A stretch of DNA of 64,000 nt from an uncultured Nitrospirota bacterium. Its GTDB lineage: Bacteria; Nitrospinota; Nitrospinia; CAJXCL01. A program made the translations under genes and the position numbers. Shown here one piece after another: positions 7,895 to 25,098 of the stretch. The DNA lies in contig CAJXCL010000002.1 of NCBI GenBank assembly GCA_913051775.1, forward strand, positions 18,307-82,306. The letters are read 5' to 3'. The notes under the pieces were generated by a model, which did no database searches, was not told where the DNA came from, and saw only the letters and a list, made by a program, of their open reading frames with translations. How positions within the stretch are numbered: the stretch's first letter is position 1; each line of letters starts with the position of its first letter.

Positions 7895-7950
7895 TATAAC
7901 TTTTTATGTTTAAAAAAGTTTGCTTTTTTTCGGCTTAATAGCCCTATATA

Positions 7951-8196
7951 ATGGTATTCAAAAAATATGGCTCTGATTCTATAAAGATGCTGCGAGATTT
8001 TGCTTCTGTCGGCAGTTTCGGTTTTCTTATGGCAGGGGCTATTCTTTTTGGATATTTTGCCGGAAATTTTTTAGATGATTATTTTGGCACTTCCCCTATA
8101 TTTCTTATCCTTTTTCTTGTTTTAGGCATTGTTGGCGGGTTTATGGAATATCTAAAGATTATAAAAAAAGTAATAAAAGATAAAAACAAAACATGA
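7951..8196 (+). CDS. AtpZ/Atp1-like small two-TM membrane protein at the head of the atp operon
   Basis: 81 aa with two hydrophobic helices, positioned immediately upstream of atpI. Resembles the PF09527 'ATPase gene1' family. Confidence 0.5.
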   Translation: MVFKKYGSDSIKMLRDFASVGSFGFLMAGAILFGYFAGNFLDDYFGTSPIFLILFLVLGIVGGFMEYLKIIKKVIKDKNKT

Positions 8197-8672: not shown

Positions 8673-8805
8673 AAATTTAAACAACCCTTCGACAAAGACT
8701 GTCCTGAGTTTATCGAAGGGATCAGGGTGACAGAGACTGTCATGGTGAGCCTGTCGAACCATGAATTTGTAATTTGTTTTTTTCATTACTTTTTAGAGAT
8801 ATTTT

Positions 8806-9561
8806 ATGGCAGTGGAACACGAAGCGGTAAATAAAGCAACAAAAACCAGCTTAGAGCTTCCTTCTTTCATGGATTTACTGGGGGACCTGCACCATGAAGT
8901 TTTTGGGATTTCCCTGCATCACTGGGTTCCTATTATTATGTCTTTGATAGTAGCGTCAATATTAGTGGCTGTCACGTATTACACTACTAAGGATTTAAAG
9001 AAAATTCCTCAAGGGATGCAGGCTTTCCTCGAAGTTGTTATAGAAGGAATGCAGGGTTTTTTTGGGGATATATTGGGATCCGGCGCTTCTGTTTTTTTAC
9101 CGTTTGTCGGCAGTCTTTTTATTTATATATATCTAATGAACATAATGGGCTTTATACCGTTCTTTCATGCCCCTACCAGCAGCCCAAATACAACAATTGC
9201 TCTCGCGGTGATTGTTTTTTTTATTACCCATTATGTTGGAATAACCAGAAATGGAGTTGTTGGATATCTAAAACATTTTGTGGGAGAACCTATATGGATG
9301 GCGCCCCTTCTTTTTCCCATTCATATTATAGGGGAATTAGCGCGGCCGCTTTCTCTTTCCATGAGACTTTTTGGGAATATTATGGGAGAAGATACAGCCA
9401 TTGCTATCTTAGTAGGGCTGGGAGTTTCATTATATTTTATACCTATCCAGTTTCCGATATTGCTGCTGGGCCTCTTGACAACTCTAATTCAGGCAGTAGT
9501 GTTTACAGTTCTGTCCAGCGTCTATATAGGAGGTGCTGTCGGTCATCATGATGAACATTAA
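8806..9561 (+). CDS. atpB: F-type ATP synthase Fo subunit a
   Basis: Contains LSLSMRLFGNIMGE with the essential Arg. Polytopic membrane protein. Confidence 0.9.
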   Translation: MAVEHEAVNKATKTSLELPSFMDLLGDLHHEVFGISLHHWVPIIMSLIVASILVAVTYYTTKDLKKIPQGMQAFLEVVIEGMQGFFGDILGSGASVFLPFVGSLFIYIYLMNIMGFIPFFHAPTSSPNTTIALAVIVFFITHYVGITRNGVVGYLKHFVGEPIWMAPLLFPIHIIGELARPLSLSMRLFGNIMGEDTAIAILVGLGVSLYFIPIQFPILLLGLLTTLIQAVVFTVLSSVYIGGAVGHHDEH

Positions 9562-9648
9562 ATCATTTGTCAAAGGTGAAGGGGAAAAAAGATTATTGTA
9601 GGAACTATTAACCAACAACTAAATAACTAATAAAAAGGAGGTGTTACT

Positions 9649-9912
9649 ATGCTTTATTTTGCTCTATTAGCCATTGCAACTTCTGTGGGGTTGGGAATTG
9701 CCGCTTTCGGGTGTGGAATAGGAGCGGGAAACGCAATTTCAGGCGCCCTGGCAGGTATGGCAAGGCAGCCGGAATTAACCGGTAAACTTCAGGTTACTAT
9801 GATTATAGGTCTGGCAATTATTGAATCGCTGACTATTTATTGCCTGGTTATTGCTTTCATGCTTTTCGCAAAACTACCGGCAACAGATCAGATGTTGGGT
9901 TTAATAAAATAA
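9649..9912 (+). CDS. atpE: F-type ATP synthase Fo subunit c
   Basis: GxGxGxG helix-1 motif, the MARQPE loop and the helix-2 carboxylate E59 in IIESLTIY. A strong RBS (aaaaggagg) lies upstream. Confidence 0.9.
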
Positions 9913-10167
9913 TTGGGAAAGCTTTCAGCCAAAACAGGGTAGAGACAGTGGCAGACGTTAGATGGCAAGTGTTAGTTTTTTTCTAATCCTTGAAACTATC
10001 AGTTTTTTTAACTTTGTTGTTTAGCGGCCTGAACTTTCACGACCATACAAGAAGTTATACTATTACACTGCAAAACTCGCTTTTTTTAGGCGCTGTTAGT
10101 TCTTGTTTTTTGCAGCACCTTATGCAAAACTTGAAAGTTTTTTCTCTTCTAAACCGGGGCGAAAGCC

Positions 10168-10295
10168 CTATTTGATTATCGGCAAAGCTGAGATTAGCTC
10201 TGCCAGCAGTGGCCTCAACCCTTTGGGTGGCTTTCCTTGGGGAACCGTCCAATTCGGTTTTCCTTACCGAATTGTGGATACGGCAGCTTGCCTCT
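10168..10295 (+). repeat. REP-like element family A, copy B, inside the atp operon between atpE and atpF
   Basis: tatttgatt…cctcaaccctttgggtgg…ccgtccaattcggttttccttaccgaattgtgg (caattcgg/ccgaattg 8-bp stem)…cggcagcttgcctc. Confidence 0.7.
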
Positions 10296-10312
10296 TTATG
10301 GAGTAAGATCAA

Positions 10313-10801
10313 ATGGAGTCTTTAGATTTTAGACTGATTATAGTCCAGGGCATCGGATTTGTACTACTGTATTTCCTATTGAAGAAGTTTTTATTTGGCC
10401 GAATTATCGATTTAATTAAGGCCAGAGAAAATGAAATCAGGGATACTTATGCTAAAAGCGACCAGGACAGGGATGAGGCTTCTAAATTAAAGTCCGATTA
10501 TGAAGCCAGAATCGCTCAGGCAGAAGAAGAAGCGCATAAAAAAATACAGGAAGCTGTGCTGGAAGCAAAAAAGATAAGCGATAATATTGTTAAAAATACG
10601 AAAGAGGAAACGGAAAAAATTAAAGAAAAAGCCAAGAGGGACATAGATCAGGAAAAAAAGAACGCCTTGGTTGAAATTAGAAAAGAAGTGGTTAATTTGA
10701 GTATGATTGCTACGGAAAAATTAATCGAAAAATCGGTTGACAAAAAAACGGCGGAAAAGCTGATAGAGAGCGCTATCCAGGATATAGGAGAAGTCTCGTG
10801 A
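10313..10801 (+). CDS. atpF: F-type ATP synthase Fo subunit b
   Basis: N-terminal TM helix followed by a long charged coiled coil (E/K/A-rich). Operon position supports the call. Confidence 0.8.
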   Translation: MESLDFRLIIVQGIGFVLLYFLLKKFLFGRIIDLIKARENEIRDTYAKSDQDRDEASKLKSDYEARIAQAEEEAHKKIQEAVLEAKKISDNIVKNTKEETEKIKEKAKRDIDQEKKNALVEIRKEVVNLSMIATEKLIEKSVDKKTAEKLIESAIQDIGEVS

Positions 10802-11346
10802 TCGAAAGGATAGCCGTTGGCAGATACGCTCAGGTATTGCTGGAAGAAGCTGCTGCATTAAATAAAGTAGATGAATTTGAAGAAGAACTCAAGTGGCTGG
10901 ATTCTTTATTGATAACAAACCCGAAACTGTTTCTTGTTTTAAAAAATCCTTTAGTTCAGCCTAAAAAGAAAAAAGAGTTAGTAGATAAAGTTTTTTCCAA
11001 AAATATCAACCTAAAACTAAAAAACTTTTTGTATCTTCTGATTGATAAACGCCGTGTGGAAATTTTGGAAGGAGTCCTAAAAGAATATCAGTTAAGGGCT
11101 GATACATACAGGGGAGTGGTAAAAGCCGAAGTGCAGTCTGCTATTACACTTTCCGAACAAAAAGTTGAAGAAATCAAAAAAGCACTTGAGAGCAAAATAA
11201 AAAAAACCATAAAAATTGAAGCGAAAGTTTTTCCAAAAATTATTGGAGGCTTAATCATTTATATTGGCTCCTCAATTATCGATAGGAGTATCATGGGACG
11301 ATTAAAAGTAATGCGGGAAAAACTGTTGGCAATGGAAGGGATGTGA
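10798..11346 (+). CDS. atpH: F-type ATP synthase subunit delta (OSCP)
   Basis: 182 aa, lies between atpF and atpA, and its start overlaps the atpF stop. Confidence 0.75.
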   Translation: MIERIAVGRYAQVLLEEAAALNKVDEFEEELKWLDSLLITNPKLFLVLKNPLVQPKKKKELVDKVFSKNINLKLKNFLYLLIDKRRVEILEGVLKEYQLRADTYRGVVKAEVQSAITLSEQKVEEIKKALESKIKKTIKIEAKVFPKIIGGLIIYIGSSIIDRSIMGRLKVMREKLLAMEGM

Positions 11347-11494
11347 AAGTTTACAGTAATCAGAGCTCAGTTGTCAGATTATTTGTACCATTTAGGTAGG
11401 TTTTATGTTGAACTCGAATCTAATGACAGGCTGACAGCCGATCCCTGACATCTGTAAACTTTTTATTATTAAATTTATTACAAGGAGGTCTGTT

Positions 11495-13009
11495 TTGGCA
11501 TTAAGGGCGGAAGAAATTACCTCGATTATAAAAAAAGAACTGAGTGGTTACGAAGAAAAACTCAAAATGGAAAGTGTGGGAACCGTTTTACAGGTTGGTG
11601 ACGGTATCGCGCGCGTTTATGGGTTAGATGACTGCATGTACATGGAGTTATTGGAATTTCCTAATAGCATTTTTGGAGTAGCTCTGAACCTTGAACGGGA
11701 CAATGTCGGCGTCATAATCATGGGTCCGGACACAGGAATTAAAGAAGGAGACATTGTTAAAACAACCGGCAAGATTATTCAGGTTCCTGTGGGCGATGCC
11801 ATGTTGGGAAGAGTTGTGAATGCTCTCGGTCAACCCATTGATGGAAAAGGAGAGATTGCTACAGAAAAATTCTTTCCATTAGAAGGAAGAGCGCCTAATG
11901 TTGTGCAAAGACAGCCTGTTAAAGAACCTATTCAGACAGGAATAAAAGCCATAGATGCCATGATCCCGATAGGGAGGGGTCAGAGAGAACTAATTATCGG
12001 GGACCGCCAGACCGGAAAGACCGCGATATGTATTGATACAATCATCAATCAAAAAAATACAGATGTTTATTGCATCTACGTGGCTATAGGACAAAAACAA
12101 TCCACTGTAGTCGGAGTTCAGGAGACTCTTGAGAAATACGGGGGCATGGATTACACCACGATCGTTGCGGCTAACGCGTCAGATCCCGCACCCATGCAGT
12201 ATATAGCACCTTACGCGGGCTGTGCGATGGGAGAATACTTCAGGGATAATAAAAAGCATTGCCTGATAATTTACGATGATCTATATAAACATGCTGTAGC
12301 TTATAGGCAGGTATCTTTACTGCTTAGAAGACCGCCGGGCCGTGAGGCGTTTCCCGGCGATATTTTTAACCTTCACTCTAGACTTTTGGAAAGAGCGGCA
12401 AAATTAAACGATGAACTCGGAGGTGGTTCTTTAACCGCGCTCCCTATTGTTGAAACTCAGGCAGGTGACTATGCCGCATACATTCCTACTAACGTGATAT
12501 CTATTACCGATGGACAGATTTATCTGCAGGGCGATCTTTTCTATGCCGGCGTCAGACCCGCAATTAACGTTGGCCTTTCCGTGTCCAGGGTTGGGGGAAA
12601 CGCCCAGATACCTGCCATGAAAAAAGTCGCTGGAACACTGCGGCTTGATCTCGCACAGTACAGGGAATTGGCCGCGTTTGCCCAGTTTGGCTCGGATCTC
12701 GATAAAGCGACAAAGTCCCAATTAGATAGAGGAATCAGAATGGTGGAAATCCTGAAACAGGGCCAGTTCATTCCGCTGGACGTAATAAGCCAGGTAATGA
12801 TTATCTCAATTGCCGGTTTTGGGTATCTTGATGATGTGCCGGTTAATGAAATGCAACCTTTTGAAAAAGGTTTCTATAAATACGCGGACAAAAATTTTCC
12901 ACATCTGAGAGAAAAATTAGCCGCGGAGAAGAAATTGTCCGATGACATTGTAGACTTGCTAAAAAAAGCAGCTGAAGGATACAAAGCAGAGTATAAAAAA
13001 GGAGCTTAA
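11495..13009 (+). CDS. atpA: F-type ATP synthase subunit alpha
   Basis: P-loop GDRQTGKT, and the protein aligns with alpha subunits throughout. TTG start. Confidence 0.95.
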
Positions 13010-13147
13010 CTGCTATTTAAAACTCGAAATCCGAAATAAACTCAAATAATAAAACTTAATTCTCTCTGTTGTTTATGAAATTTAATGTTTGAATTTTGGA
13101 TTTGTTTCGGTTTTTGCTATTCGGATTTAAACCTTTAAAGTATTTTT

Positions 13148-14005
13148 ATGGCCTCAGCAAAAGATATAAAAAAAAGAATAAAGGGCATCAAAAACATCCA
13201 GCAAATCACCAGGGCTATGGAAATGGTTGCCGGAGCAAAGCTCAGACGCGCTCAAGTGCTGGCGGAAAGCGCGAAACCCTACGCTGAAAAAATACAGTCC
13301 CTTATGCAAAACCTTGGTTCATCCGTTTCCGCCTTTGAACATCCCCTTCTGACAAAAAGAGCGGAAAACAATGTCGCCCTGATTTTAGTTACATCAGATA
13401 GAGGTCTTTGCGGAGCTTATAACACAAACCTGTTCAAAAAAGTTCAAGCATACTTCAGAGAAAATCAAGACAAAAAAATCTCCCTCTTTTGTATTGGCAA
13501 AAAAGGAAATGATTTTTTTAAGCATAGAAATTACGATATTCGATATTATTCTCCCTCGGACAATAAAATTATGACCCTGGATAAAGTGAATGAACTGGTG
13601 GATAAAATGATAAACGAATACACCAACACTTTTTTCGACAAAGTTCTGATAGTATTTTCAAAGTTTGTTTCAGTGATGAATCAAATTCCAACGGAAAGAC
13701 CGCTTCTGCCGGTAGAAAAAATTGAAGAAAAGGAAGACCGGCGGGTGGATTATATTTTTGAACCCGGGGCTCAAAGTTTACTTGAAAAACTGTTTCCAAA
13801 ATACTTGGAGAATCAGCTTTATAACGCAATTGTGGAGTCTTATGCGTCGGAATTAGCAGCACGTCTTGTGTCCATGAAAAACGCTACCAAGAGTGCGGGA
13901 GAAATGATAGATTCTCTGACACTAACTTATAATAAGGCAAGACAGGCTGGAATCACAAAAGAGATTTTAGAAATTATCTCCGGGGCAGAAGCCCTGAAAG
14001 GATAA
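13148..14005 (+). CDS. atpG: F-type ATP synthase subunit gamma
   Basis: N-terminus MASAKDIKKRIKGIKNIQQITRAMEMVAGAKLRRAQ is typical of gamma subunits. Confidence 0.9.
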   Translation: MASAKDIKKRIKGIKNIQQITRAMEMVAGAKLRRAQVLAESAKPYAEKIQSLMQNLGSSVSAFEHPLLTKRAENNVALILVTSDRGLCGAYNTNLFKKVQAYFRENQDKKISLFCIGKKGNDFFKHRNYDIRYYSPSDNKIMTLDKVNELVDKMINEYTNTFFDKVLIVFSKFVSVMNQIPTERPLLPVEKIEEKEDRRVDYIFEPGAQSLLEKLFPKYLENQLYNAIVESYASELAARLVSMKNATKSAGEMIDSLTLTYNKARQAGITKEILEIISGAEALKG

Positions 14006-14086
14006 AAGTTCATTACCCCCCATTATTATTCCTCCCTAACAAGGGGGATTAAGGGGGCGTTAAAATCTGCGTTCTATTTAATTTAA

Positions 14087-15861
<1,775 letters not shown>

Positions 15862-15890
15862 ATAAAAAAGCAATAGAGGAGTTTTTTTAA

Positions 15891-16364
15891 ATGAACTTTG
15901 TTTTTACCTCAATAATAATGTTTGTTTTCTGGATACTCCTGTCAGGTGAGTTCCATTTTTTACTCATGCTCTCAGGTATTGTATTTAGCCTCTTTGTTGC
16001 GTACATATCTCATGACCTTTTGATCGGAAGCGATAATATTAGACTTTTCTCTACAAGGATGCTCAGATTCTGCAGATACGTGCCGTGGCTTGTCTGGCAG
16101 ATTTTGCTGGCTAATCTCGACTTGGTCTATCGCACCCTGCACCCGAAAATGCCGATAGACCCACAGGTTATCAGATTTGATACAGCTCTTAGGTCAGATA
16201 TAGGGATAACAGTTCTTGCCAACTCAATAACACTCACACCCGGTACAGTCACTATAGTGGCAAACCAGGATGGTGAATTCATTGTCCATGCCATAGCAAG
16301 GAAGCCTGCTAAAGATCTTCTGGCAGGCGAGATGCAGGCAAAGGTAAAGAGAGTAGAGGGATAA
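15891..16364 (+). CDS. mrpE: Mrp/Mnh cation:proton antiporter subunit E
   Basis: MnhE-type signature SITLTPGT plus N-terminal TM helices. Confidence 0.8.
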   Translation: MNFVFTSIIMFVFWILLSGEFHFLLMLSGIVFSLFVAYISHDLLIGSDNIRLFSTRMLRFCRYVPWLVWQILLANLDLVYRTLHPKMPIDPQVIRFDTALRSDIGITVLANSITLTPGTVTIVANQDGEFIVHAIARKPAKDLLAGEMQAKVKRVEG

Positions 16365-16367
16365 TCA

Positions 16368-16622
16368 ATGTTTGATGCAGTTGCAACTATTATTGTATTT
16401 GCAGCAATTTTAGTCCTGTACAGGGTTATTAAAGGACCCACGATTTATGACAGAGTGCTCGCTGCAAATGCGATAGGAACAAAAACTGTGGTGCTCATAG
16501 CACTTATAGGATTTATCTATGAGCGCCCACATTTTCTTGATATTGCATTGGTATATGCGCTTATAAACTTTATAGCAACTATAGCTATTCTTAAATATCA
16601 AGAAATGGGGAGACTGGACTGA
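16368..16622 (+). CDS. mrpF: Mrp/Mnh antiporter subunit F
   Basis: 84-aa membrane protein with the MnhF/PhaF pattern (…KGPTIYDRVLAANAIGT…). Confidence 0.75.
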   Translation: MFDAVATIIVFAAILVLYRVIKGPTIYDRVLAANAIGTKTVVLIALIGFIYERPHFLDIALVYALINFIATIAILKYQEMGRLD

Positions 16623-16936
16623 TGGTAGTCACAACGATTATATCATACCTCTTTTTGGCAGTCGGTTGCTTTTTGATTGTGGTTGCATCAATTGGGATAA
16701 TCCGGTTCCCTGATGTTTATTCCAGAATACATCCTGCGGGCAAGTCTGACACCCTCGGACAGGCAATGATATTTATAGGATTGATGATTTATGAAGGGCT
16801 TTCTTTTGTAAGCATTAAGCTCTTAATAATTGTCATATTTATATTTATTACTAATCCGACAGCGACCCATGCTCTCGTAAATGCAGCACATGCGGCGGGT
16901 CTAAAGCCATGGGAAAAAGGTGATGACAGAAATTGA
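16622..16936 (+). CDS. mrpG: Mrp/Mnh antiporter subunit G
   Basis: About 100 aa with MnhG pattern (…IRFPDVYSRIHPAGKSDTLG…). Confidence 0.75.
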   Translation: MVVTTIISYLFLAVGCFLIVVASIGIIRFPDVYSRIHPAGKSDTLGQAMIFIGLMIYEGLSFVSIKLLIIVIFIFITNPTATHALVNAAHAAGLKPWEKGDDRN

Positions 16937-17058
16937 TCATTCGCCAATACCATATAGTTTCTAATGAGTAAATTTGAATTTGTTGAACTAAATTGTTTGT
17001 TAAGATTATTGTCACTAAAAGATGACTAATTTTAGTGGAAAAATGAAAAAGGAATGAA

Positions 17059-18090
17059 TTGATGATTGATTTGATGCTTCTTTTATTTCTTGTTGTGTGT
17101 GCTATTGCCGCAGTTTCCATGAAGGACTTGCTGAGTACAACCATTATCCTTGGAGTATATAGCTTAATAATGACTGTAGTATGGACAAGGCTGAATGCAG
17201 TAGATGTTGCCTTTACAGAGGCGTCTGTTGGGGCCGGTATTACAACAGTGTTAATAATAGCAGCATTGAGCAGAACAAAAAGGGAGGAAGAAGGTCAGGA
17301 ATATGGGATGTGGAGCAAGCTGTTGAATCCTCAAGACTTAAAGTTGACTGATAAACAGTCGCCACTTTTATGGTTGACATCCTTATTTATTGTACTAATA
17401 ACCGGAGCTGTATTGATATATGGCACCATTGATATGCCTGATTTTGGAGACCCAGATGCACCGGCGAATATTCATTTGGCTAAAAGGTTTATAGAAGAAT
17501 CCTATGAAGAAACAGGTGTACCTAATTTTGTTACCGCGATTCTTGCAAGCTATAGAGGATATGATACCCTCGGAGAGACTACTGTCATATTTACAGCAGG
17601 GATATCTTTGATATTGCTGTTAAGGAGAAAGAGCTATATCTGTGATACTACTATCAAAGAGAAAGAAATGAAGGAGCACATAGTTATAAGAACTATCTCC
17701 AGAATCCTGATCCCATTTGTGCAGCTTTATGCACTTTATGTTATTGCTCATGGTGAACTTAGCCCGGGCGGTGGGTTTCAAGGCGGAGTAATTTTTGGCT
17801 CAAGCATAATTCTTTATGTAATAGCCTTCGGTCTAGAGGAAGGAAGGAAGGTAAGAATTTTTCGAGAGATGGGCGACCTTTTAAATTCAACAGGCGTTTT
17901 AATATATGCAGGCATTGGGGTTCTCTGTTTATTGGCAGGGGGTGCATATCTCGAATACGATAAGCTCCCTCTGGGGTCAGAAAAAATGGCAAGTTCTTTA
18001 GGAATTTATGGCATTGAAATAGGTGTAGGGATTACAGTTGCTGCTGTAATGATAACCATATTCTTTATAACAGCAAGGCATGAAAGATGA
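17059..18090 (+). CDS. mrpB: MrpB-like subunit (DUF4040 N-domain fused to an MnhB domain)
   Basis: N-terminal DUF4040-like TM segment, then the MnhB core …YALYVIAHGELSPGGGFQGGVIFGSSI…. Architecture resembles the MbhD/E proteins of Mbh-type complexes. Confidence 0.7.
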   Translation: MMIDLMLLLFLVVCAIAAVSMKDLLSTTIILGVYSLIMTVVWTRLNAVDVAFTEASVGAGITTVLIIAALSRTKREEEGQEYGMWSKLLNPQDLKLTDKQSPLLWLTSLFIVLITGAVLIYGTIDMPDFGDPDAPANIHLAKRFIEESYEETGVPNFVTAILASYRGYDTLGETTVIFTAGISLILLLRRKSYICDTTIKEKEMKEHIVIRTISRILIPFVQLYALYVIAHGELSPGGGFQGGVIFGSSIILYVIAFGLEEGRKVRIFREMGDLLNSTGVLIYAGIGVLCLLAGGAYLEYDKLPLGSEKMASSLGIYGIEIGVGITVAAVMITIFFITARHER

Positions 18091-18515
18091 TTGAGCTCAT
18101 TTTAGGAAAATATAACTACTGGGTTTATATAACGCTTATGATGATAGGATTTTATGCAATGATTGAAAAAGAAAACCTGATTAAAAAAATCATTGGCATG
18201 AATATCTTTCAAACGGCAGTGTTTCTTTTTTACATATCTATTGCTAAGGTAAAAGGAGGAACTGCACCTATACTATGGGAAAAAGAAGGAATCCCGTACG
18301 ATAACCCCATTCCACATGTACTGATCCTTACCGCTATTGTTGTATCTGTGAGCACAACAGCAGTTGCCCTTGCCCTGATAATAAGGATATTTAAGGAATA
18401 CGGCACTATTGAAGAAGATAAAATCCTAATTATGAGTGAAGTGAGCGGCAAACAGGATTCGACAGAAAATTCCAAATTTTTATCTTCCACCTCCTTGCTT
18501 CAGAAGGGAGAATGA
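18087..18515 (+). CDS. mrpC: Mrp/Mnh antiporter subunit C (NuoK-like)
   Basis: Three-TM NuoK/MnhC-like protein (…NIFQTAVFLFYI…). Confidence 0.75.
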   Translation: MIELILGKYNYWVYITLMMIGFYAMIEKENLIKKIIGMNIFQTAVFLFYISIAKVKGGTAPILWEKEGIPYDNPIPHVLILTAIVVSVSTTAVALALIIRIFKEYGTIEEDKILIMSEVSGKQDSTENSKFLSSTSLLQKGE

Positions 18516-20047
18516 CTTTGACAGAAAGCCTTCCAATCCTGGTCATCATTATACCTTTAATATCAGCAATTATAATTCCTCTCATCGGAAGGATTGATAA
18601 GTCAATTGCCTTTGCTTTCGTCATATCTGCAAATTTTTTGTCCTTTATCATCTCAATTTCTCTTTTAAATACTGTCATGGAAACCGGCAGAATCAGTTAT
18701 TGGCTTGGCGGCTGGGAGCCTCCATGGGGTATAGAGTATGTGGTTGATTATCTAAGTGGCTTTGTACTCGTCATTGTTTCATTCATTGCTTTTATTATAT
18801 CAGTATACGCAAAAAAGAGTGTTGAGATGGAGGTTGAAGGGGAAAAAATACTCCCCTTTTACTCAATATACATGTTACTAGTTACAGGGTTTATGGGGAT
18901 GATCATAACCGGAGATATATTTAATCTTTATGTGTTTATTGAAATATCAGCTCTTGCTGGTTATGCCCTGATTGCCATAGGGAAAAAGAGAGCTGCTCTT
19001 ATAGCTAGTTATAACTATCTTGTGTTAGGCACAATAGGAGCCACATTTATCCTCCTTGGTATCGGCTACCTTTACATGGCTACCGGCACTTTGAATATGG
19101 CAGATTTGAGAGAGCGGCTGCCTATGCTTTATGACTCAAAGGTTGTGCTAACTGCCTTTGCATTTATAACGGTTGGGCTGAGCCTGAAACTCGCCCTTTT
19201 CCCGTTTCATATTTGGTTACCAAACGTATACAATCATGCTCCATCGGTTGTGTCCGCTTTAATGGCAGCAACTTCCGCAAAGGTTATTGCTTATGTTCTT
19301 GTGCGGATAATGTTTTCTGTATTTACGATGAAGTTTGATCTGGAGGTTGTGCCTGTTACAAAGATACTCCTCTTCCTTTCCGTCATTGCAATTATTGCCG
19401 GCTCTGTTCTTGCTATTGCCCAGACTAATATAAAACGGATGCTGGCATACTCCAGTATTGGGCAGATCGGATACATCGTCCTTGGCATTGCCATTTCAAA
19501 TCAACTATCCATGACCGGAAGCCTTATCCATTTACTAAACCACGCCCTGATGAAAGGAACCTTATTTCTTGTAGTCGGTGCTGTTGTTTACAAAACAGGC
19601 ATGGAAGATATATCGAGTCTCAAAGGTATGGGTAAAAAGATGCCTTTTACTATGGCTGCCTTTACAATTGGAGCGCTTTCGATGATCGGTGTTCCCCTTA
19701 CCGTTGGTTTTGTTAGCAAGTGGTATCTTGCCCTTGGCGCCCTGAAGGCCGGTATGTGGTTCTTGGTTTTCATAATCCTTGTAAGCTCTCTCCTTAATGC
19801 GGTGTATTTCTGGAGGGTTATTGAGGGGATATACTTTCATCAGAAGCCAAAAGTCAGAAGTCAGAAGTCAACAACTAAGGATTCAATCGAAAGCCTGAAA
19901 CCCGAAATCCAAAATCAAGACGATGCTCCTGTGGGTATGCTTATCCCGACGCTTATCCTTGCCGGTCTCTGTATAGTTTTTGGTATTGCTGCTTTTATAC
20001 CTGTATCTGTGGTAACACCAATTGTAAACATGCTTCTGGAGGTGTGA
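18512..20047 (+). CDS. mrpD: Mrp antiporter subunit D (NuoN/NuoM-like proton-pumping subunit)
   Basis: A 14-TM antiporter-like fold with the conserved region …LLNHALMKGTLFLVVGAVVYKTG…MPFT…. Confidence 0.8.
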   Translation: MTLTESLPILVIIIPLISAIIIPLIGRIDKSIAFAFVISANFLSFIISISLLNTVMETGRISYWLGGWEPPWGIEYVVDYLSGFVLVIVSFIAFIISVYAKKSVEMEVEGEKILPFYSIYMLLVTGFMGMIITGDIFNLYVFIEISALAGYALIAIGKKRAALIASYNYLVLGTIGATFILLGIGYLYMATGTLNMADLRERLPMLYDSKVVLTAFAFITVGLSLKLALFPFHIWLPNVYNHAPSVVSALMAATSAKVIAYVLVRIMFSVFTMKFDLEVVPVTKILLFLSVIAIIAGSVLAIAQTNIKRMLAYSSIGQIGYIVLGIAISNQLSMTGSLIHLLNHALMKGTLFLVVGAVVYKTGMEDISSLKGMGKKMPFTMAAFTIGALSMIGVPLTVGFVSKWYLALGALKAGMWFLVFIILVSSLLNAVYFWRVIEGIYFHQKPKVRSQKSTTKDSIESLKPEIQNQDDAPVGMLIPTLILAGLCIVFGIAAFIPVSVVTPIVNMLLEV

Positions 20048-20051
20048 ATTA

Positions 20052-21554
20052 GTGGAAATAATACAATCAGCACAGCCGCTTTATACCGTAGCCGTTTCTC
20101 TTTTAGCGATTATTCTTATCGGCTTGTCTGGTAATAAAGACCCTAACTTGAGAGAATCTTGGACAATCTTGGCAGCAATAATAAAGTTCTTTATGGTTGT
20201 TTCTATGATTCCACAAATCCTTGATAGTAAAGTAATTGAATATTCTCTCATCACGCTCCTACCGGGACTTGAAATAAAATTCAGAGTCGATGCCCTTGCC
20301 CTTACCTTTGCCACCACCGCTTCTTTTCTTTGGATTATCACATCGTTTTATTCTATTGGATATATGAGGACATTAAAGGAACATGCGCAGACTAGATATT
20401 TTATGTGCTTTGCCGGAGCAATGGCAGGAGCCATTGGCGTAGCCTTTTCTGCAAACCTGTTTACCCTTTTTCTCTTTTACGAAACTATCACCTTTTGCAC
20501 ATTCCCTCTTGTTGCCCATAGTGAAAAACCCGATGCCATAAAAGGTGCCAGAAAATATATTGTTTATCTACTGGGCACATCTTTAGCTTTTCAGTTATTT
20601 GCCATATTTCTTACATATAATGTTGCGGGAACTCTCGAATTTTCTAATCAGGGTATTCTGGCTGGAAAAGCTTCCAATGCACTGTTGACTGTAATATTTA
20701 TACTTTTCATTGCCGGGGTCGGAAAAGCCGCTATGATGCCACTTCACGCTTGGCTTCCTGCTGCCATGGTTGCTCCTGGGCCTGTAAGCGCCCTCTTACA
20801 TGCAGTGGCAGTAGTGAAGGTAGGAGTCTTTACAGTCGTAAAGGTGATACTTCATGTATTCGGAATTGACCTGCTCTCTCAACTTGGTCTCGGCACGTGC
20901 CTTGCTTATTTTGCTTCTTTTACTATAATAGTTGCATCCGTTATAGCGTTAAGACAGGATAATTTAAAAGCATGTCTTGCATATTCAACTATTAGCCAGC
21001 TATCTTATATCGTACTTGGTGTTGCACTCCTTGCTCCGTCCGGAATTACAGGGAGCATCTTGCACATAACAATGCATGCATTTGCAAAGATAACCCTGTT
21101 TTTTACAGCAGGAACAATTTATTTAGTTACTCATAAGACAAGGATAAGCGAGCTTGCCGGAATAGGAAAACAGATGCCATTTACAATGTCGGCCTTTGCA
21201 GTGGCCTCACTTTCTATGATAGGTATCCCCCCTCTCGGTGGTTTTTTGAGCAAGTGGTTTTTAGCTATTGGATCTATAGAGGCGAAGCAAATACCAATTA
21301 TTATTGTGTTGGCGACAAGCTCAATTCTTAATGCATCTTATTTTCTGCCAATAGTACATGCAGCATTCTTTAAAGAACCTCATTATGCTAAGCACCAGTC
21401 CCCTAAGCCAAAACAAAACATGCTTGAGGCCCCTGCCCTTGTGCTGATACCGCTTATGATTACTGCTATAGGGACGTTGGTATTGTTTCTATGGCCGTCG
21501 TTGTTTCTTGACCTTGCAAGGATCGTTGTTGCAGGTGTTACAGGAGAGAATTAA
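20052..21554 (+). CDS. Second NuoL/M/N-like antiporter subunit (MrpD/MrpA-like)
   Basis: Same fold as the preceding mrpD (…LHAVAVVKVGVF…MHAFAKITLFFTAGT…MPFTM…). Confidence 0.75.
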   Translation: MEIIQSAQPLYTVAVSLLAIILIGLSGNKDPNLRESWTILAAIIKFFMVVSMIPQILDSKVIEYSLITLLPGLEIKFRVDALALTFATTASFLWIITSFYSIGYMRTLKEHAQTRYFMCFAGAMAGAIGVAFSANLFTLFLFYETITFCTFPLVAHSEKPDAIKGARKYIVYLLGTSLAFQLFAIFLTYNVAGTLEFSNQGILAGKASNALLTVIFILFIAGVGKAAMMPLHAWLPAAMVAPGPVSALLHAVAVVKVGVFTVVKVILHVFGIDLLSQLGLGTCLAYFASFTIIVASVIALRQDNLKACLAYSTISQLSYIVLGVALLAPSGITGSILHITMHAFAKITLFFTAGTIYLVTHKTRISELAGIGKQMPFTMSAFAVASLSMIGIPPLGGFLSKWFLAIGSIEAKQIPIIIVLATSSILNASYFLPIVHAAFFKEPHYAKHQSPKPKQNMLEAPALVLIPLMITAIGTLVLFLWPSLFLDLARIVVAGVTGEN

Positions 21555-21558
21555 AAAG

Positions 21559-21801
21559 ATGAAAAAAGAGATAGAGTTCTTTGATAAACCCAAAAACATA
21601 AAAATAATGCGCAGGGTATTCCACCTATCTCTTGTCGTGCTTATTGCCTTAGATTTTTTTATCTCAAAACACCCCCAATTCTCCATGGAAGGAATCCCGG
21701 GATTCTATGCCACGTACGGGTTTATTGCATGTGCTTTGATCATTGCCGTATCAAAGGCCCTGGGACTTTGGCTTAAAAAGAAAGAGGATTATTATGACTA
21801 A
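21559..21801 (+). CDS. Small two-TM membrane protein inside the Mrp cluster
   Basis: 81 aa. RBS ggagag precedes the ATG at 21559. Its end overlaps the next gene by 8 nt. No recognisable family. Confidence 0.45.
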   Translation: MKKEIEFFDKPKNIKIMRRVFHLSLVVLIALDFFISKHPQFSMEGIPGFYATYGFIACALIIAVSKALGLWLKKKEDYYD

Positions 21802-23575
21802 CTGGATTCCTCCGGCAGCTATATTTATTTTTGGGGCATGCATTATCCCATTTCTAACAGGAAAGGCAAAGCAGGTCTATTTACTTCTACTTCCTGTTCT
21901 TGCTTTTATAAACCTTCTTAACATGCCTGAGGGTACAGACTGGGTATTTAATTTTCTTGGCTATGAAGTTATCTTTGGCAAGGTTGATAAACTGAGCAAG
22001 GTCTTCGGTTATATCTTTGTAATAATGGCATTTGGAGGGGCACTATTCTCTCTCCATTTAAAAGAGCAGCAAGAATCTGTGGCTGGATTTCTTTATGCCG
22101 GCGGCTCTCTCGGGGTTGTATTTGCAGGAGACTTCCTTTCTCTCTTTATCTTCTGGGAAATTATGTCAGTTTCATCAACTTACATCGTCTGGAGCCGAAG
22201 AACAAAGGCAGCCCAAGATGCGGGGTTAAGATATATCCTTGTGCATCTATTGGGTGGACTGTTCCTTTTATTCGGCATAATCATAAACGCATCTAATTCG
22301 GGCTCTATCGAGTTTGGTTTTATAGAATTAAATGGATTAGCGTCTTATCTTATACTGATTGGTTTTGCCGTGAATGCTGCCATTCCTCCTCTGTCTGCAT
22401 GGCTCTCCGATTCCTATCCTGAGTCAACAGTAACAGGAGCTGTATTCCTGAGTGCCTTTACAACCAAGACTGCAGTGTATGTCCTGTGCAGGGCGTTTCC
22501 AGGCGCAGAAATTTTGATATGGGCAGGGGCATTGATGACGATATACGGCATTATATATGCCATCTTAGAGAATGATATGAGGCGGGTTTTGGCATATAGC
22601 ATTATTAACCAGGTTGGATTTATGGTGGCAGGAATTGGAATAGGCACGGAACTATCAATCAATGGTACTGCCTCACACGCCTTTGCACATATCCTCTATA
22701 AGGCTTTGCTTTTCATGTCTGCCGGAGCGGTACTGTATAGGACAGGTAAAAGCAAGTGCACAGACCTAGGTGGGCTGTATAAGACAATGCCTGTAACCCT
22801 TATTTTTTGTCTTGTTGGTGCAGCCTCTATCTCAGCGTTTCCTCTAACCGGAGGATTTATAAGTAAATCAATGATAATTTCCGCATCAGGCCATGAGAAG
22901 ATGACAGTTATATGGTTGCTTCTCAACCTTGCATCAGCAGGGGTCTTCCTCCATGCAGGCATAAAATTCCCCTACTTTGTATTCTTTGCGAAGGACTCAG
23001 GTTTAAGGCCAAAGGAGCCGCCTTTAAACATGCTTCTTGCCATGGGCTTTTTTGCCTTTTTATGCATCTTTATCGGTGTATTTCCCGGGGTGCTTTACAG
23101 GATACTCCCATATCCTGTTGAATTTGTTCCTTACACTGCGAGTCATGTGATTAACCAACTCCAGATACTCTTATTCTCTGCCTTAGCGTTTTTTACACTC
23201 TTAAAATTTCTCCAGAGAACAGAAACGATAAGCCTCGATACCGACTGGTTTTATAGAAAAGGGTCCAGAGCCTTCTTGTGGTTTGTGGATAATCCAATGT
23301 CCAGATTTGGTCACCAGATGGGAAAGATTTTTTTCTATTATATCCTGGATTCCCTCATATGGTTTAGCAGAAACCCACTGGCAGTTCTCAAGATGGCTGC
23401 TGATACAATGTTCTTGTTGGTTAGCGATCCTGATCAAAGAATAGAAATAAAGAAACGAATAGAAAAAGAGAAGGAAATCTATCCGGGTGATATAATCAAA
23501 CACTGGCCTATAGGCTCAACAGTTCTGTACCTGACCTTCTTTCTCTTAACCTGTTTGTTGGTGTATTACTTGTAA
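21794..23575 (+). CDS. Third NuoL/M/N-like antiporter subunit with a C-terminal extension of about 120 aa
   Basis: RBS agagga precedes the ATG at 21794. Antiporter core (…HAFAHILYKALLFMSAGAV…) followed by an extra C-terminal TM region. Confidence 0.75.
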   Translation: MTNWIPPAAIFIFGACIIPFLTGKAKQVYLLLLPVLAFINLLNMPEGTDWVFNFLGYEVIFGKVDKLSKVFGYIFVIMAFGGALFSLHLKEQQESVAGFLYAGGSLGVVFAGDFLSLFIFWEIMSVSSTYIVWSRRTKAAQDAGLRYILVHLLGGLFLLFGIIINASNSGSIEFGFIELNGLASYLILIGFAVNAAIPPLSAWLSDSYPESTVTGAVFLSAFTTKTAVYVLCRAFPGAEILIWAGALMTIYGIIYAILENDMRRVLAYSIINQVGFMVAGIGIGTELSINGTASHAFAHILYKALLFMSAGAVLYRTGKSKCTDLGGLYKTMPVTLIFCLVGAASISAFPLTGGFISKSMIISASGHEKMTVIWLLLNLASAGVFLHAGIKFPYFVFFAKDSGLRPKEPPLNMLLAMGFFAFLCIFIGVFPGVLYRILPYPVEFVPYTASHVINQLQILLFSALAFFTLLKFLQRTETISLDTDWFYRKGSRAFLWFVDNPMSRFGHQMGKIFFYYILDSLIWFSRNPLAVLKMAADTMFLLVSDPDQRIEIKKRIEKEKEIYPGDIIKHWPIGSTVLYLTFFLLTCLLVYYL

Positions 23576-23622
23576 AGTAAAACTAAATCGTTCAATAATG
23601 TCTTCAGATTCTTTGAACAGGG

Positions 23623-23670
23623 GTGGGCGACATTGACGAAGTGCTTGAAAAAGCAAAGAAAATGAAGTAA
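23623..23670 (+). pseudogene. Remnant of the atpD 3' end, part of the duplicated segment
   Basis: ggtgggcgacattgacgaagtgcttgaaaaagcaaagaaaatgaagtaa encodes …[15 protein letters not shown]. The genuine atpD C-terminus is …[16 protein letters not shown]. Confidence 0.8.
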
Positions 23671-23745
23671 TAAAACCATGCGCTGTTTTCCCCCCTATCA
23701 AGAGGGGAAACAGGTGGTGTTAACTACATTACAGCTCAAAAAAAA

Positions 23746-24027
23746 ATGGCTGAAGAAAAAACATTCAAGTTGGAAATTATCACGCCTAACGAGGTGGTAT
23801 TAAGCAAGGATGTGTTGAGCATTACAGCTCCCGGAGCAGAAGGATCCTTTGGAATCCTTGCCAACCACGCACCTTTTATGACTTCCCTTGACAAAGGCGA
23901 ACTGAAAATCAAAGAACCCGGCCAGGTAAATCCTCTAATTATCGACATCAATAAAGGCTTTCTCGAAGTCTTAAACAACAAAGTTGTTGTCCTCGTCGAT
24001 AAAGTCAAAACCGAAGATCAAGAGTAG
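23746..24027 (+). CDS. Second ATP synthase epsilon paralog, short, about 65% identical to atpC
   Basis: MAEEKTFKLEIITPNEVVLSKDVLSITAPGAEGSFGILANHAPF… It is preceded by the same upstream sequence and RBS as atpC. Confidence 0.8.
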   Translation: MAEEKTFKLEIITPNEVVLSKDVLSITAPGAEGSFGILANHAPFMTSLDKGELKIKEPGQVNPLIIDINKGFLEVLNNKVVVLVDKVKTEDQE

Positions 24028-24121
24028 TCTTACTTGTTAGAACCATGATTGTCATTCCCGCATGGTTTCAGCTGGAATCCGGGTGTGAACAAATCCAAAA
24101 TAGCTCAACTGCGTTAAAATA

Positions 24122-24150
24122 TTGACAGTCAATGGTGCGCAATGTAAAAT
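24122..24150 (+). promoter_or_regulatory. Near-consensus sigma70-type promoter upstream of the ankyrin-repeat gene
   Basis: TTGACA, then a 17-nt spacer (gtcaatggtgcgcaatg), then TAAAAT, about 65 nt upstream of the start codon. Confidence 0.55.
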
Positions 24151-24215
24151 TTTTAACTAAGGAAAAAAAGATAAAATTTCACAATTTATAAAAATATTAA
24201 AGGAGATGGAAAACT

Positions 24216-24704
24216 ATGGCGGAAGATTTGAAAAGCGCAATTGAAAAAGGTGACCTGGAAGCAGTATCCGCGCTATTAGAAAAAGGGATAAGCGTTAATG
24301 AAATGCTGGAATCTGAATTTACTCCCTTAATCACCGCAACAAACAGCGGCCATTTTGATATTGTAAAAAAATTGATTGAGAGTGGAGCTGACGTAAATGC
24401 AAAATGCGAACGTGACATAACAGCTCTCAAAGCGGCATCGGCTCATGGAGATATAGAAACAGTCAAGCTCTTATTGGAGAACAGCGCAGATCTAAATGCG
24501 GCTGGAGGAACTTTACCGGCAATACTGATAGCTGCAAGTAACGGCCATATAAATCTTGTCAAGTTCATGCTGGAAAAAGGAGCCAAGATTAATTTAAAAG
24601 ATGAGAGAGAGTATGAAGCAGTAATGAATGCGGCACACAATGGTCACTTGGAGGTTGTAAAACTTTTGATGCAAACGGAAGGTAATCAAAGCAAAAAAAA
24701 ATAA
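24216..24704 (+). CDS. Ankyrin-repeat protein (4 to 5 ANK repeats)
   Basis: Repeated TPLITATNSGHFDIVKKLIESGADVNAK-type 33-residue modules. A strong RBS (aaaggagatgg) precedes the start. Confidence 0.85.
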   Translation: MAEDLKSAIEKGDLEAVSALLEKGISVNEMLESEFTPLITATNSGHFDIVKKLIESGADVNAKCERDITALKAASAHGDIETVKLLLENSADLNAAGGTLPAILIAASNGHINLVKFMLEKGAKINLKDEREYEAVMNAAHNGHLEVVKLLMQTEGNQSKKK

Positions 24705-25098
24705 GCGTGCAAGCTTCAGCGCTTAACCTGCTATAGTTTCTTTCACTTGCAGCTCACTTTTGGTTGCTCAAAACGAAATAGATCCAAACTTTCTCTCATA
24801 TGCTGCTCATCTGTAGTTTAGGTAAGTGTTACCATCTATGATTGATACTTTAATATTGAAGCTCCCCGGAACAATGACCTACCCTAAATCTTAGTGCCAC
24901 CCTTAGAGTGATGATTTTCTATACGATCAGTTGAAGCGTAGCGGAAACTGATGGTATAGGTTAATATTTTCATTGTGCTCATAATTACGGATACTGATTA
25001 GCAATTTCATTACCGCTTATGGTAGATTTAGAGAATAAGCGGAAATCACTATTAGGGGAAAGGCTCACAAGTGGAGTCATTTTTATTGAGGAACGAAA

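What the first reader, a model, noticed from the sequence alone, without database searches (positions are those of the whole stretch)
15891..23575. Atypical Mrp cluster: order E-F-G-B-C-D-D-(small ORF)-D, no canonical MrpA, three NuoL/M/N-like subunits
Canonical Mrp operons run mrpABCDEFG with a large MrpA (an MrpB-like domain fused at its C-terminus). Here the order begins E-F-G, and the MrpB-like protein carries a DUF4040 N-domain. Three separate 500-610-aa antiporter-like subunits are present, the last with a C-terminal extension of about 120 aa, plus an unassigned 81-aa membrane protein. E-F-G-B-C-D is the order of the membrane arm of Mbh/Mbx-type (group 4 hydrogenase-related) complexes, yet no NuoB/C/D/H/I-like or hydrogenase subunits are present. 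This may be a stand-alone antiporter of the Mbh-arm type or part of an undescribed respiratory-like module that works with the flanking ATPase.
Basis: partly seen in the sequence, partly recalled or inferred. Interest (0 to 1): 0.6.

Follow-up and report, generated by a model that had tools for sequence, protein, structure and literature searches.

The report
Common group-3 Mrp cation/proton antiporter
This is a complete sodium/proton antiporter (Mrp) gene cluster of a widespread, already annotated subtype with three proton-channel subunits, so it is ordinary; only its position inside the ATP synthase operon of a marine Nitrospinota bacterium is unusual.

Summary
The genes are real and in the stated order: mrpE, F, G, a MbhD+MbhE+MnhB fusion, C, three antiporter-like subunits (D1, D2, D3) and an 80-aa membrane protein (X) between D2 and D3. 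No redox subunit lies anywhere in the 64-kb window.

The cluster is not an undescribed type. Six of its proteins pass curated NCBIfam cut-offs. The D3 subunit occurs in at least 587 GTDB species. The same order, X included, recurs in distant bacteria and archaea. Published genome papers call it "group 3 Mrp" or "MrpEFGBCD1D2D3". The exact proteins are already deposited from Nitrospinota MAGs as Na+/H+ antiporter subunits.

MrpA is split, not missing. D2 has the MrpA-type histidine on TM8. D3 has the TM15, lateral helix and TM16 extension. The MrpA C-terminal domain is fused to MrpB. Residues on the sodium path are conserved.

The best reading is a stand-alone cation/proton antiporter with three proton modules. 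The link to the ATPase is confined to one species-level lineage: the cluster sits between two diverged copies of an atpD-3'/atpC segment, and the c subunit resembles proton-type rings.

Residual points: X is a large family with no annotation, and the D2-X-D3 triplet is shared with the rhizobial "green" complex I.

The parts
15891..16364 (+). mrpE (157 aa)
   Evidence: Pfam MNHE, E = 6.6e-36. It is the first gene of the conserved order in related loci.
16368..16622 (+). mrpF (84 aa)
   Evidence: Pfam MrpF_PhaF, 1.8e-20. NCBIfam NF009244 scores 93.6 against a cut-off of 90. The GPTxxDR motif aligns with the same motif of MbhB, MbsB and MrpF chains in the PDB.
16622..16936 (+). mrpG (104 aa)
   Evidence: Pfam PhaG_MnhG_YufB, 4.4e-28. 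NF009314 scores 107.6 against a cut-off of 102.
17062..18090 (+). Fusion of the MrpA C-terminal domain (MbhD + MbhE) with MrpB (342 aa)
   Evidence: Pfam MbhD at residues 9-75, MbhE at 136-191 and MnhB at 209-333. NF009161 covers the full length, 336.2 against a cut-off of 272, and the protein aligns to positions 610-928 of an MrpA'-type model. The PDB alignments keep the DVAFTEA Glu, YRGYDTLGE and HGELSPGGGFQGG motifs.
18087..18515 (+). mrpC (NuoK-like, 142 aa)
   Evidence: Pfam Oxidored_q2, 1.9e-23. NF005621 scores 154.1 against a cut-off of 126.
18512..20047 (+). D1, an MrpD/MbhH/MbsH-type antiporter-like subunit (511 aa)
   Evidence: Best PDB matches are MbsH (1.7e-76), MbhH (3.1e-63) and MrpD (3.2e-54), against MrpA at 1e-36. 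The TM5 Glu, TM7 Lys, TM8 Lys and TM12 Lys are all present.
20052..21554 (+). D2, an MrpA-N/NuoL-type 14-TM core without a lateral helix (500 aa)
   Evidence: Best PDB match is NuoL (2e-40). There is a Proton_antipo_N hit just below its cut-off. NF006236 scores 670.2 against a cut-off of 663. TM8 carries both the His and the Lys of MrpA, aligned to H273/K279 of 6z16_A.
21559..21801 (+). X, a conserved 80-aa two-helix membrane protein with no annotation
   Evidence: X lies between D2 and D3 in every locus that covers that interval. There are 86 distinct sequences, with a conserved His, a YGF motif and a C-terminal EDYYD motif. It has no Pfam or PDB match. 2,511 cluster representatives match at E <= 0.001. 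AlphaFold2 predicts a hairpin of helices 11-34 and 49-79.
21794..23575 (+). D3, an MbsH'/MrpA-N/NuoL-like subunit with TM15, lateral helix and TM16 (593 aa)
   Evidence: NF009310 scores 766.5 against a cut-off of 564 over the full length. Best PDB sequence match is MbsH', 3.9e-38. The AlphaFold2 model has pLDDT 88.5, with TM15 at 449-473, helices spanning 485-562 and TM16 at 573-592. The top Foldseek matches are MrpA 7qru_A and 6z16_A, then NdhF and NuoL. An invariant Asn194 sits at the position of the TM7 Lys.
15451..15861 (+). Left copy of the duplicated segment: last 52 nt of atpD, the intergenic hairpin and atpC1
   Evidence: Direct repeat families D1, D3 and D4 and the DNA alignment.
23622..24027 (+). 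Right copy of the duplicated segment: dead atpD 3' fragment, the intergenic hairpin and atpC2 (93 aa)
   Evidence: AtpC1 and AtpC2 are 64% identical. dN/dS is 0.17. Pfam ATP-synt_DE_N, 5.4e-25.
8806..15861 (+). Context: F1Fo ATP synthase genes (a, c, b, delta, alpha, gamma, beta, epsilon) directly upstream
   Evidence: ORF translations, Pfam labels on identical contigs and the c-subunit alignment to PDB rings.

Best explanation
The cluster encodes a stand-alone, secondary Mrp (CPA3) monovalent-cation/proton antiporter of the 'group 3' kind, made of ten gene products.

The cation-handling module consists of MrpE, F, G, the MrpA-C/MrpB fusion and MrpC. A row of three antiporter-like proton modules is attached to it. 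In the order suggested by gene order these are D1 (MrpD-type, next to MrpC), D2 (MrpA-N-type core carrying the TM8 histidine) and D3. D3 carries a helical segment of about 78 residues and a C-terminal transmembrane anchor, which presumably clamps the row together as in MrpA, NuoL and MbsH'. The small protein X is most likely a structural subunit at the D2/D3 junction.

Protons driven inward by the proton motive force pass through the antiporter-like subunits. Their charge changes are relayed along the central polar axis to the Glu of the MbhD domain and the Asp of MrpF, and this expels Na+ (possibly K+ or Li+).

Shown here: gene content, domain identities, conservation of key residues, the fold of D3, absence of a redox module, and the wide distribution of the type.

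Inferred: ion specificity, subunit order within the complex, a higher H+ to cation ratio from the third module, the role of X, and co-transcription with the atp operon in this organism.
For: - Every Mrp subunit family is present at strong E-values, and six proteins pass curated NCBIfam cut-offs.
- Key residues are conserved:
  - The TM5 Glu, TM8 Lys and TM12 Lys are present in all three large subunits, and the TM7 Lys in D1 and D2.
  - The MrpA-type TM8 His is present in D2.
  - The equivalent of MbsD E58 / MrpA Glu687, the YRGYDTLGE motif and the PGGGF motif of MrpB are present (roles as described in PMC9568556 and PMC7684303).
  - The MrpF DR motif is present.
- The D3 model has TM15, a lateral helix and TM16, and its best structural matches are MrpA, NdhF and NuoL.
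- There is no NuoA/B/C/D/J/K homologue in the window. None of the 35 complete loci of this type has NuoA-D within the flanks held (up to 10 kb); one (L069) has a separate NuoJ/NuoK pair on the opposite strand.
- The same order recurs in Nitrospirota, Desulfobacterota, Brocadiaceae, Alpha-, Beta- and Gammaproteobacteria, methanogens and ANME archaea.
- A group 3 cyanobacterial Mrp showed Na+/H+ antiport when expressed in E. coli (as summarised in PMC5703873).
- Published annotations of the same type: PMC7784846, PMC13274419, PMC3578206.
Against: - No member of this exact subtype (three antiporter-like subunits plus X) has been assayed or solved. The closest PDB chain to D3 is MbsH' at only 3.9e-38.
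- D3 lacks the TM7 Lys (invariant Asn194), so its proton module may work differently or be partly structural.
- Ion specificity cannot be read from sequence. One Mrp is reported to be a Ca2+/H+ antiporter (PMC5703873).
- A redox partner encoded elsewhere in the genome cannot be excluded from a 64-kb window.
Confidence: 0.85

Rival explanations
1. The cluster is the membrane arm of a redox-driven, complex-I-like or Mbh/Mbs-like ion pump whose peripheral module is encoded elsewhere. One candidate partner is the FdhF/YdeP-type molybdoenzyme 1.5 kb downstream.
For: - The gene order and best PDB matches resemble the MBS and MBH membrane arms.
- The D2-X-D3 triplet is also part of real complex I clusters, flanked by NuoJ and NuoK upstream and NuoA-D downstream, in Rhizobium, Ensifer, Acidobacteriota and others. 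This is the 'green complex I' of PMC9040806.
- An FdhF/YdeP-family gene lies at 25099-27258.
Against: - There is no NuoH/MbhM-like anchor and no NuoB/C/D homologue in the window.
- None of the 35 complete loci of this type has NuoA-D nearby.
- Close relatives have unrelated neighbours and no YdeP gene beside the cluster.
- The E, F, G and B subunits, which this type always carries, are absent from the complex-I-type loci.
Confidence: 0.05
2. The cluster is a dedicated partner of the ATP synthase. It is co-transcribed with the atp genes and converts proton and sodium gradients for a Na+-coupled or mixed-coupling F1Fo, with the second epsilon subunit as part of this adaptation.
For: - The cluster starts 29 nt after atpC1, and a second intact atpC follows it.
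- No convincing terminator lies between atpB and atpC2, and the strongest promoter-like site comes only after atpC2.
- Both epsilon copies are under purifying selection, dN/dS = 0.17.
- The arrangement is stable in many contigs of this species.
Against: - The arrangement is confined to the 99%-identical lineage. The relative whose D3 is 86% identical has a different gene downstream, and the 78% and 76% relatives have no atp genes on either side.
- The c subunit aligns best with proton-type rings (Spirulina c15, chloroplast c14, Bacillus PS3). By my own reading it has Ala where the Na+-binding Gln sits and Leu where the Thr sits (for the alignment; the identity of the Na+ ligands is from my memory of the Ilyobacter tartaricus c-ring literature).
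- The promoter and terminator counts do not exceed the shuffled controls.
Confidence: 0.1

Closest known systems
Group 3 Mrp antiporters (irregular gene order). Examples: 'Mnh/MrpEFGBCD1D2D3' of Verruconatronum alginivorum, the group 3 Mrp of Ca. Nitrospira alkalitolerans with two extra NuoM/L-like genes, the 'eight subunit Mnh-type' antiporter of Nitrospina gracilis, and Aphanothece halophytica mrpCD1D2EFGAB.
   Same: - The subunit families are the same.
- There are several MrpD-like genes.
- MrpA is reduced to a short DUF4040 protein.
- No redox genes are present.
- For the first two examples the gene order is also the same (PMC13274419, PMC7784846, PMC3578206, PMC5703873).
   Different: - In the window MbhD, MbhE and MnhB are fused into one protein. 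This is a minority variant, also seen in L040 and L078.
- The cluster is embedded in the atp operon.
- None of the papers I read with these tools mentions the small X gene. (One of the papers in the 'same' list, PMC3578206, I queried only with the terms Mrp, antiporter, ATP synthase and ATPase.)
Canonical group 1 Mrp (Bacillus pseudofirmus 7QRU, Anoxybacillus flavithermus 6Z16)
   Same: - All seven subunit functions are present.
- The proton-path and sodium-path residues are conserved.
- A lateral helix clamps the antiporter-like subunits (PMC9568556, PMC7419157).
   Different: - MrpA is divided among D2 (core with the His switch), D3 (lateral helix and anchor) and the MbhD/MbhE domains, which are fused to MrpB.
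- There is one extra antiporter-like subunit.
- There is an extra subunit, X.
- The gene order is E-F-G first.
Membrane arms of Pyrococcus furiosus MBS (6U8Y) and MBH (6CFW)
   Same: - The gene order is E/F/G, then D/E/B, then C, then H (and H').
- These are the best sequence matches in the PDB for D1, D3, the B fusion and F.
- MbsH' also carries TM15, helix HL and TM16 (PMC7684303).
   Different: - The window has no MbsM/J/K/L/N redox module.
- It has three antiporter-like subunits where MBH has one and MBS two.
- It has X.
'Green' complex I of rhizobia and Complex_I_3 of Ca. Manganitrophaceae (two MrpD-like subunits replace NuoL)
   Same: These clusters share the D2-X-D3 triplet. Their D3 is about 55-60% identical to the window's and of the same length (PMC9040806).
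   Different: There the triplet sits between nuoK and nuoM in a full nuo cluster with a redox arm, and no MrpE, F, G or B genes are present.

Membership tests
Mrp / CPA3 multisubunit cation:proton antiporter | MrpE, MrpF and MrpG subunits encoded together | tested here: met
   Pfam PF01899, PF04066 and PF03334 at 6.6e-36, 1.8e-20 and 4.4e-28.
Mrp / CPA3 multisubunit cation:proton antiporter | MrpB and MrpC (NuoK-like) subunits | tested here: met
   PF04039 at 8e-27 and PF00420 at 1.9e-23. NF009161 and NF005621 score above their cut-offs.
Mrp / CPA3 multisubunit cation:proton antiporter | At least two antiporter-like subunits, one MrpD-type and one MrpA-type with a lateral helix, plus the MrpA C-terminal domain | tested here: met
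   D1 is MrpD-type. D2 has the MrpA TM8 His. D3 has TM15, the lateral helix and TM16. The MbhD and MbhE domains are present. These functions are spread over three proteins rather than held in one MrpA.
Mrp / CPA3 multisubunit cation:proton antiporter | Conserved acidic residues of the cation path (equivalents of MrpA Glu687, MrpA Glu780 and MrpF Asp38) and the MrpB gating Phe | tested here: met
   The motifs DVAFTEA, YRGYDTLGE, GPTIYDR and PGGGF align with those of the solved chains. The residue roles are taken from PMC9568556. Assigning the Asp/Glu of YRGYDTLGE to Glu780, the Asp of GPTIYDR to Asp38, and the Phe of PGGGF to Phe41 of MrpB is my own inference.
Mrp / CPA3 multisubunit cation:proton antiporter | Measured cation/proton antiport activity | not testable with these tools
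   This needs expression in an antiporter-deficient E. coli strain and vesicle assays.
Group 3 Mrp (Ito et al. 2017) | All subunit types are present but the gene order or number is irregular (neither ABCDEFG nor A'CDEFG) | tested here: met
   The order is E-F-G-(A-C/B)-C-D1-D2-X-D3. The definition is in PMC5703873.
Group 1 / group 2 Mrp | A single large MrpA (about 800 aa), or an MrpA-MrpB fusion (about 950 aa), as the first gene | tested here: not met
   The largest protein is 593 aa. MrpA-family NCBIfam models are hit only partially and far below their cut-offs.
Mbh/Mbs/Mbx-type or complex-I-type redox-driven pumps | A NuoH/MbhM-like membrane anchor and a NuoB/C/D/I-like peripheral arm in the cluster | tested here: not met
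   No NuoA/B/C/D/J/K homologue is present in the window. None of the 35 complete loci of this type has NuoA-D. NuoH and NuoI were not used as separate queries. However, the gene calls with Pfam labels around the five relatives show none.

The most novel reading that the evidence does not exclude
X may be an obligatory subunit, so far unnamed, of a portable distal pump module (D2-X-D3). This module has been plugged both onto an archaeal-type Mrp core and, in place of NuoL, onto complex I. In the Mrp setting it would raise the H+ to Na+ ratio. In this Nitrospinota lineage the whole antiporter would have been recruited into the atp operon by a recombination event that duplicated atpC, coupling its expression to that of the ATP synthase.
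Probability: 0.3. Interest if true: 0.45.

Novelty: already known. Interest (0 to 1): 0.2.

Why it matters
As an Mrp cluster it adds nothing new. The type is catalogued, widespread and named in several genome papers, and these exact proteins are already deposited with the correct annotation.

Its residual value is as a pointer to open questions:
- No member of the three-pump, X-containing subtype has been assayed or solved.
- Stoichiometry in the Mrp/complex I superfamily is still unmeasured.
- A family of at least 2,500 cluster representatives of a small membrane protein (X) has no name.

A structure or a stoichiometry measurement of this subtype would test the idea that pump number sets the ion ratio.

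Tried and rejected
- **Hidden redox module.** I searched the window and 88 related loci with NuoA/B/C/D/J/K sequences taken from a rhizobial locus. None was found next to clusters of this type.
- **Conserved link to the ATP synthase.** I rejected this after looking at relatives whose D3 is 86%, 78%, 76% and about 65% identical.
- **Na+-coupled ATP synthase.** The c subunit aligns best with proton-type rings and lacks two of the Na+ ligands.
- **Homology of X to anything known.** Pfam, NCBIfam and a PDB profile search found nothing. The word-indexed protein search found only 25 relatives, whereas the exhaustive profile search found 2,511.
- **Regulatory RNA.** An Rfam scan of 7500-25200 found nothing. 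The promoter and terminator scan did not exceed the shuffled controls.
- **Papers not held.** Fukaya 2009 (PMC2765133) and Chadwick 2018 (PMC6194058) could not be read. What I say about them comes from the papers that cite them.
- **Position of D2 relative to D3.** I tried to infer it from lateral-helix length but could not. D3 has the same length in the three-pump Mrp loci and the four-pump complex I loci.
Full report
**What is there**

Window 15891-23575 carries nine tightly packed + strand genes.

| Gene | Coordinates | Length | Assignment |
|---|---|---|---|
| mrpE | 15891-16364 | 157 aa | MNHE |
| mrpF | 16368-16622 | 84 aa | MrpF_PhaF |
| mrpG | 16622-16936 | 104 aa | PhaG_MnhG_YufB |
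| B fusion | 17062-18090 | 342 aa | MbhD (DUF4040) + MbhE + MnhB |
| mrpC | 18087-18515 | 142 aa | NuoK-like |
| D1 | 18512-20047 | 511 aa | Proton_antipo_M |
| D2 | 20052-21554 | 500 aa | Proton_antipo_M |
| X | 21559-21801 | 80 aa | no family |
| D3 | 21794-23575 | 593 aa | Proton_antipo_M |

All Pfam assignments are far beyond chance, from 1e-19 to 1e-67. Small corrections are needed to the start codons of D3 and X and to the length of the D3 extension.

**It is a catalogued type**

- Six proteins exceed the curated NCBIfam cut-offs for whole-protein equivalog (subfamily for MrpG) models:
  - NF009161 for the fused B protein, 336 against a cut-off of 272, full length
  - NF005621 for C
  - NF006236 for D2
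  - NF009310 for D3, 766 against 564, full length
  - NF009244 for F
  - NF009314 for G
- D3 is highly conserved. More than 8,000 database proteins scored below 1e-20, with 60-70% identity across Nitrospirota, Planctomycetota, Firmicutes, Actinobacteria, Marinimicrobia and archaea.
- A scan of one genome per GTDB species found at least 587 species that encode D3.
- I annotated the 80 best loci, plus eight found through exact-protein look-ups, by BLAST against the window's proteins.
  - The triplet D2-X-D3 is present in every locus that covers it.
  - 35 of the 80 loci contain the complete E, F, G, (MbhD, MbhE, MnhB), C, D1, D2, X, D3 set. In 31 of these the order is that of the window.
  - The three small B-like domains occur separate, fused in pairs, or all fused as here.
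- Examples from an archaeon carrying pyl genes, a Scalinduaceae MAG and a close relative show the same order, with Pfam labels and unrelated neighbours.

**Literature**

- Ito et al. define group 3 Mrp as clusters with all subunits but an irregular order (PMC5703873).
- Daebeler et al. describe a group 3 Mrp in Ca. Nitrospira alkalitolerans. It is followed by two genes resembling NuoM and NuoL, which they interpret as additional mrpA/D-like genes (PMC7784846).
- The Verruconatronum paper names 'Mnh/MrpEFGBCD1D2D3' (PMC13274419).
- Other genome papers list MrpEFGBBCDD and MrpEFGBBBCD+MrpDD.
- Nitrospina gracilis, from the same phylum as this window, is said to have an eight-subunit Mnh-type antiporter (PMC3578206).
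- The window's own proteins are in NCBI from Nitrospinota MAGs, named Na(+)/H(+) antiporter subunit D and ATP synthase epsilon.

**MrpA is split, not missing**

- **D1** matches MbsH, MbhH and MrpD much better than MrpA.
- **D2** matches NuoL, NdhF and MrpA best. On TM8 it carries both the His and the Lys that align with H273 and K279 of the A. flavithermus MrpA chain. This is the histidine described as the proton switch in MrpA and NuoL (PMC9568556, PMC7419157). D2 ends after the 14-helix core.
- **D3** matches MbsH' best by sequence.
  - Its AlphaFold2 model (pLDDT 88.5, pTM 0.83) shows a 14-helix core, TM15 (449-473), three consecutive helices spanning 485-562, and a terminal TM helix (573-592).
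  - The best structural matches are the lateral-helix-bearing chains MrpA (7qru_A, 6z16_A), NdhF and NuoL.
- **The B fusion** aligns with MbsD, MbsE/MbhE and MbhF/MrpB, and with positions 610-928 of an MrpA-MrpB fusion model.
- All canonical parts are therefore present, plus one extra antiporter-like subunit and X.

**Residues that bear on mechanism**

- The TM5 Glu, TM8 Lys, the central His and the TM12 Lys are present in all three large subunits.
- The TM7 Lys is present in D1 and D2. In D3 it is replaced by Asn194, which is invariant in 68 family members.
- In the small subunits these motifs are conserved:
  - the Glu of DVAFTEA (aligned to the DVAMTEA Glu of MbsD, equated by inference with MbsD E58 and MrpA Glu687)
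  - YRGYDTLGE
  - HGELSPGGGF of MrpB
  - GPTxxDR of MrpF
- This fits a working cation/proton antiporter that uses the mechanism proposed for solved Mrp complexes.
[quoted passage not shown] By analogy a third module would raise the proton to cation ratio. That is an inference.

**No redox arm**

- No NuoA/B/C/D/J/K homologue is present in the 64-kb window.
- None of the 35 complete loci of this type has NuoA-D nearby.
- In contrast, 21 other loci carry D2-X-D3 followed by two NuoM/N-like genes, flanked by NuoJ and NuoK upstream and NuoA-D downstream. These loci come from Rhizobium, Ensifer, Burkholderiaceae, Acidobacteriota and Ca. Manganitrophaceae.
- This second arrangement is the 'green complex I', in which two MrpD-like subunits replace NuoL (PMC9040806). 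The D2-X-D3 triplet is thus a module shared by two kinds of complex.

**X**

- I collected 86 distinct X sequences from the loci. They share two hydrophobic helices, a conserved His in the loop, a YGF motif and a C-terminal EDYYD motif that overlaps the D3 start.
- X has no Pfam, NCBIfam or PDB match, and sources call it hypothetical.
- An exhaustive profile search found 2,511 cluster representatives at E <= 0.001. The best 150 are all small stand-alone proteins.
- AlphaFold2 predicts a helical hairpin with moderate confidence.
- None of the papers I read with these tools mentions X.

**The ATPase link**

- The atp genes (a, c, b, delta, alpha, gamma, beta, epsilon) end 29 nt before mrpE, and a second atpC follows D3.
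- About 410 bp are duplicated around the cluster: 15451-15861 and 23622-24027. The segment holds the last 52 nt of atpD, the intergenic region and atpC.
- The two epsilon proteins are 64% identical, with dN/dS 0.17 and saturated dS.
- The 123 nt upstream of each atpC are 85% identical, and both copies can fold into a similar hairpin.
- The arrangement occurs only in contigs that are about 99% identical to the window. It is absent from relatives whose D3 is 86%, 78% and 76% identical.
- The c subunit aligns best with proton-type rings.
- I therefore treat the embedding as a lineage-specific rearrangement, possibly giving co-transcription, and not as evidence of a new ATPase-linked machine.

**Verdict**

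This is an ordinary member of a known and widespread Mrp subtype, correctly annotated in public records. Interest is low. The unnamed X family, the Asn at the TM7 position of D3 and the atpC duplication are the only points worth a further look.

Noticed in passing
window 21559-21801; also between D2 and D3 in L001-L088: An 80-aa two-helix protein (X) with a conserved His, a YGF motif and a C-terminal EDYYD motif. It lies between D2 and D3 in both the Mrp-type loci and the complex-I-type loci. It has no Pfam, NCBIfam or PDB match, and at least 2,511 cluster representatives match its profile.
   Followed up: yes
window 15451-15861 and 23622-24027: A direct duplication of the atpD 3' end, the intergenic region and atpC brackets the mrp cluster. 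The coding part has diverged (67% nt identity, dN/dS 0.17). The 123 nt upstream, which include a dead atpD fragment, are 85% identical.
   Followed up: partly
window 15503-15573 and 23674-23745: Both atpD-atpC intergenic copies can fold into a similar hairpin (z-scores -1.6 and -3.4 against shuffles). This may be a conserved element controlling epsilon expression.
   Followed up: partly
window 22373-22375 (D3 residue 194): An invariant Asn replaces the TM7 Lys of the Glu/Lys pair in the whole D3 family (68 of 68 sequences). D1 and D2 keep the Lys.
   Followed up: partly
L027, L041, L042, L048-L051, L053, L055, L057-L060, L062, L066-L068, L071, L073, L082, L086: In these loci D2-X-D3 sits between nuoK and two nuoM/N-like genes, with nuoA-D downstream. 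This is the 'green' complex I of rhizobia and relatives, and X is part of these clusters too.
   Followed up: partly
L046 (ANME-1 Methanophagales MAG): This locus carries D1, D2, X, D3, X, D3, D3, D3: repeated copies of the D3 and X genes in one stretch.
   Followed up: no
window 15529-15861 and 23746-24027: Both epsilon subunits are short (95 and 93 aa) and match only the N-terminal beta-sandwich domain. The usual C-terminal helical domain appears to be absent.
   Followed up: no
window 24216-24704 and 25099-27258: An ankyrin-repeat-like protein and an FdhF/YdeP-family molybdopterin oxidoreductase follow atpC2. Neither lies next to the mrp cluster in relatives.
   Followed up: partly
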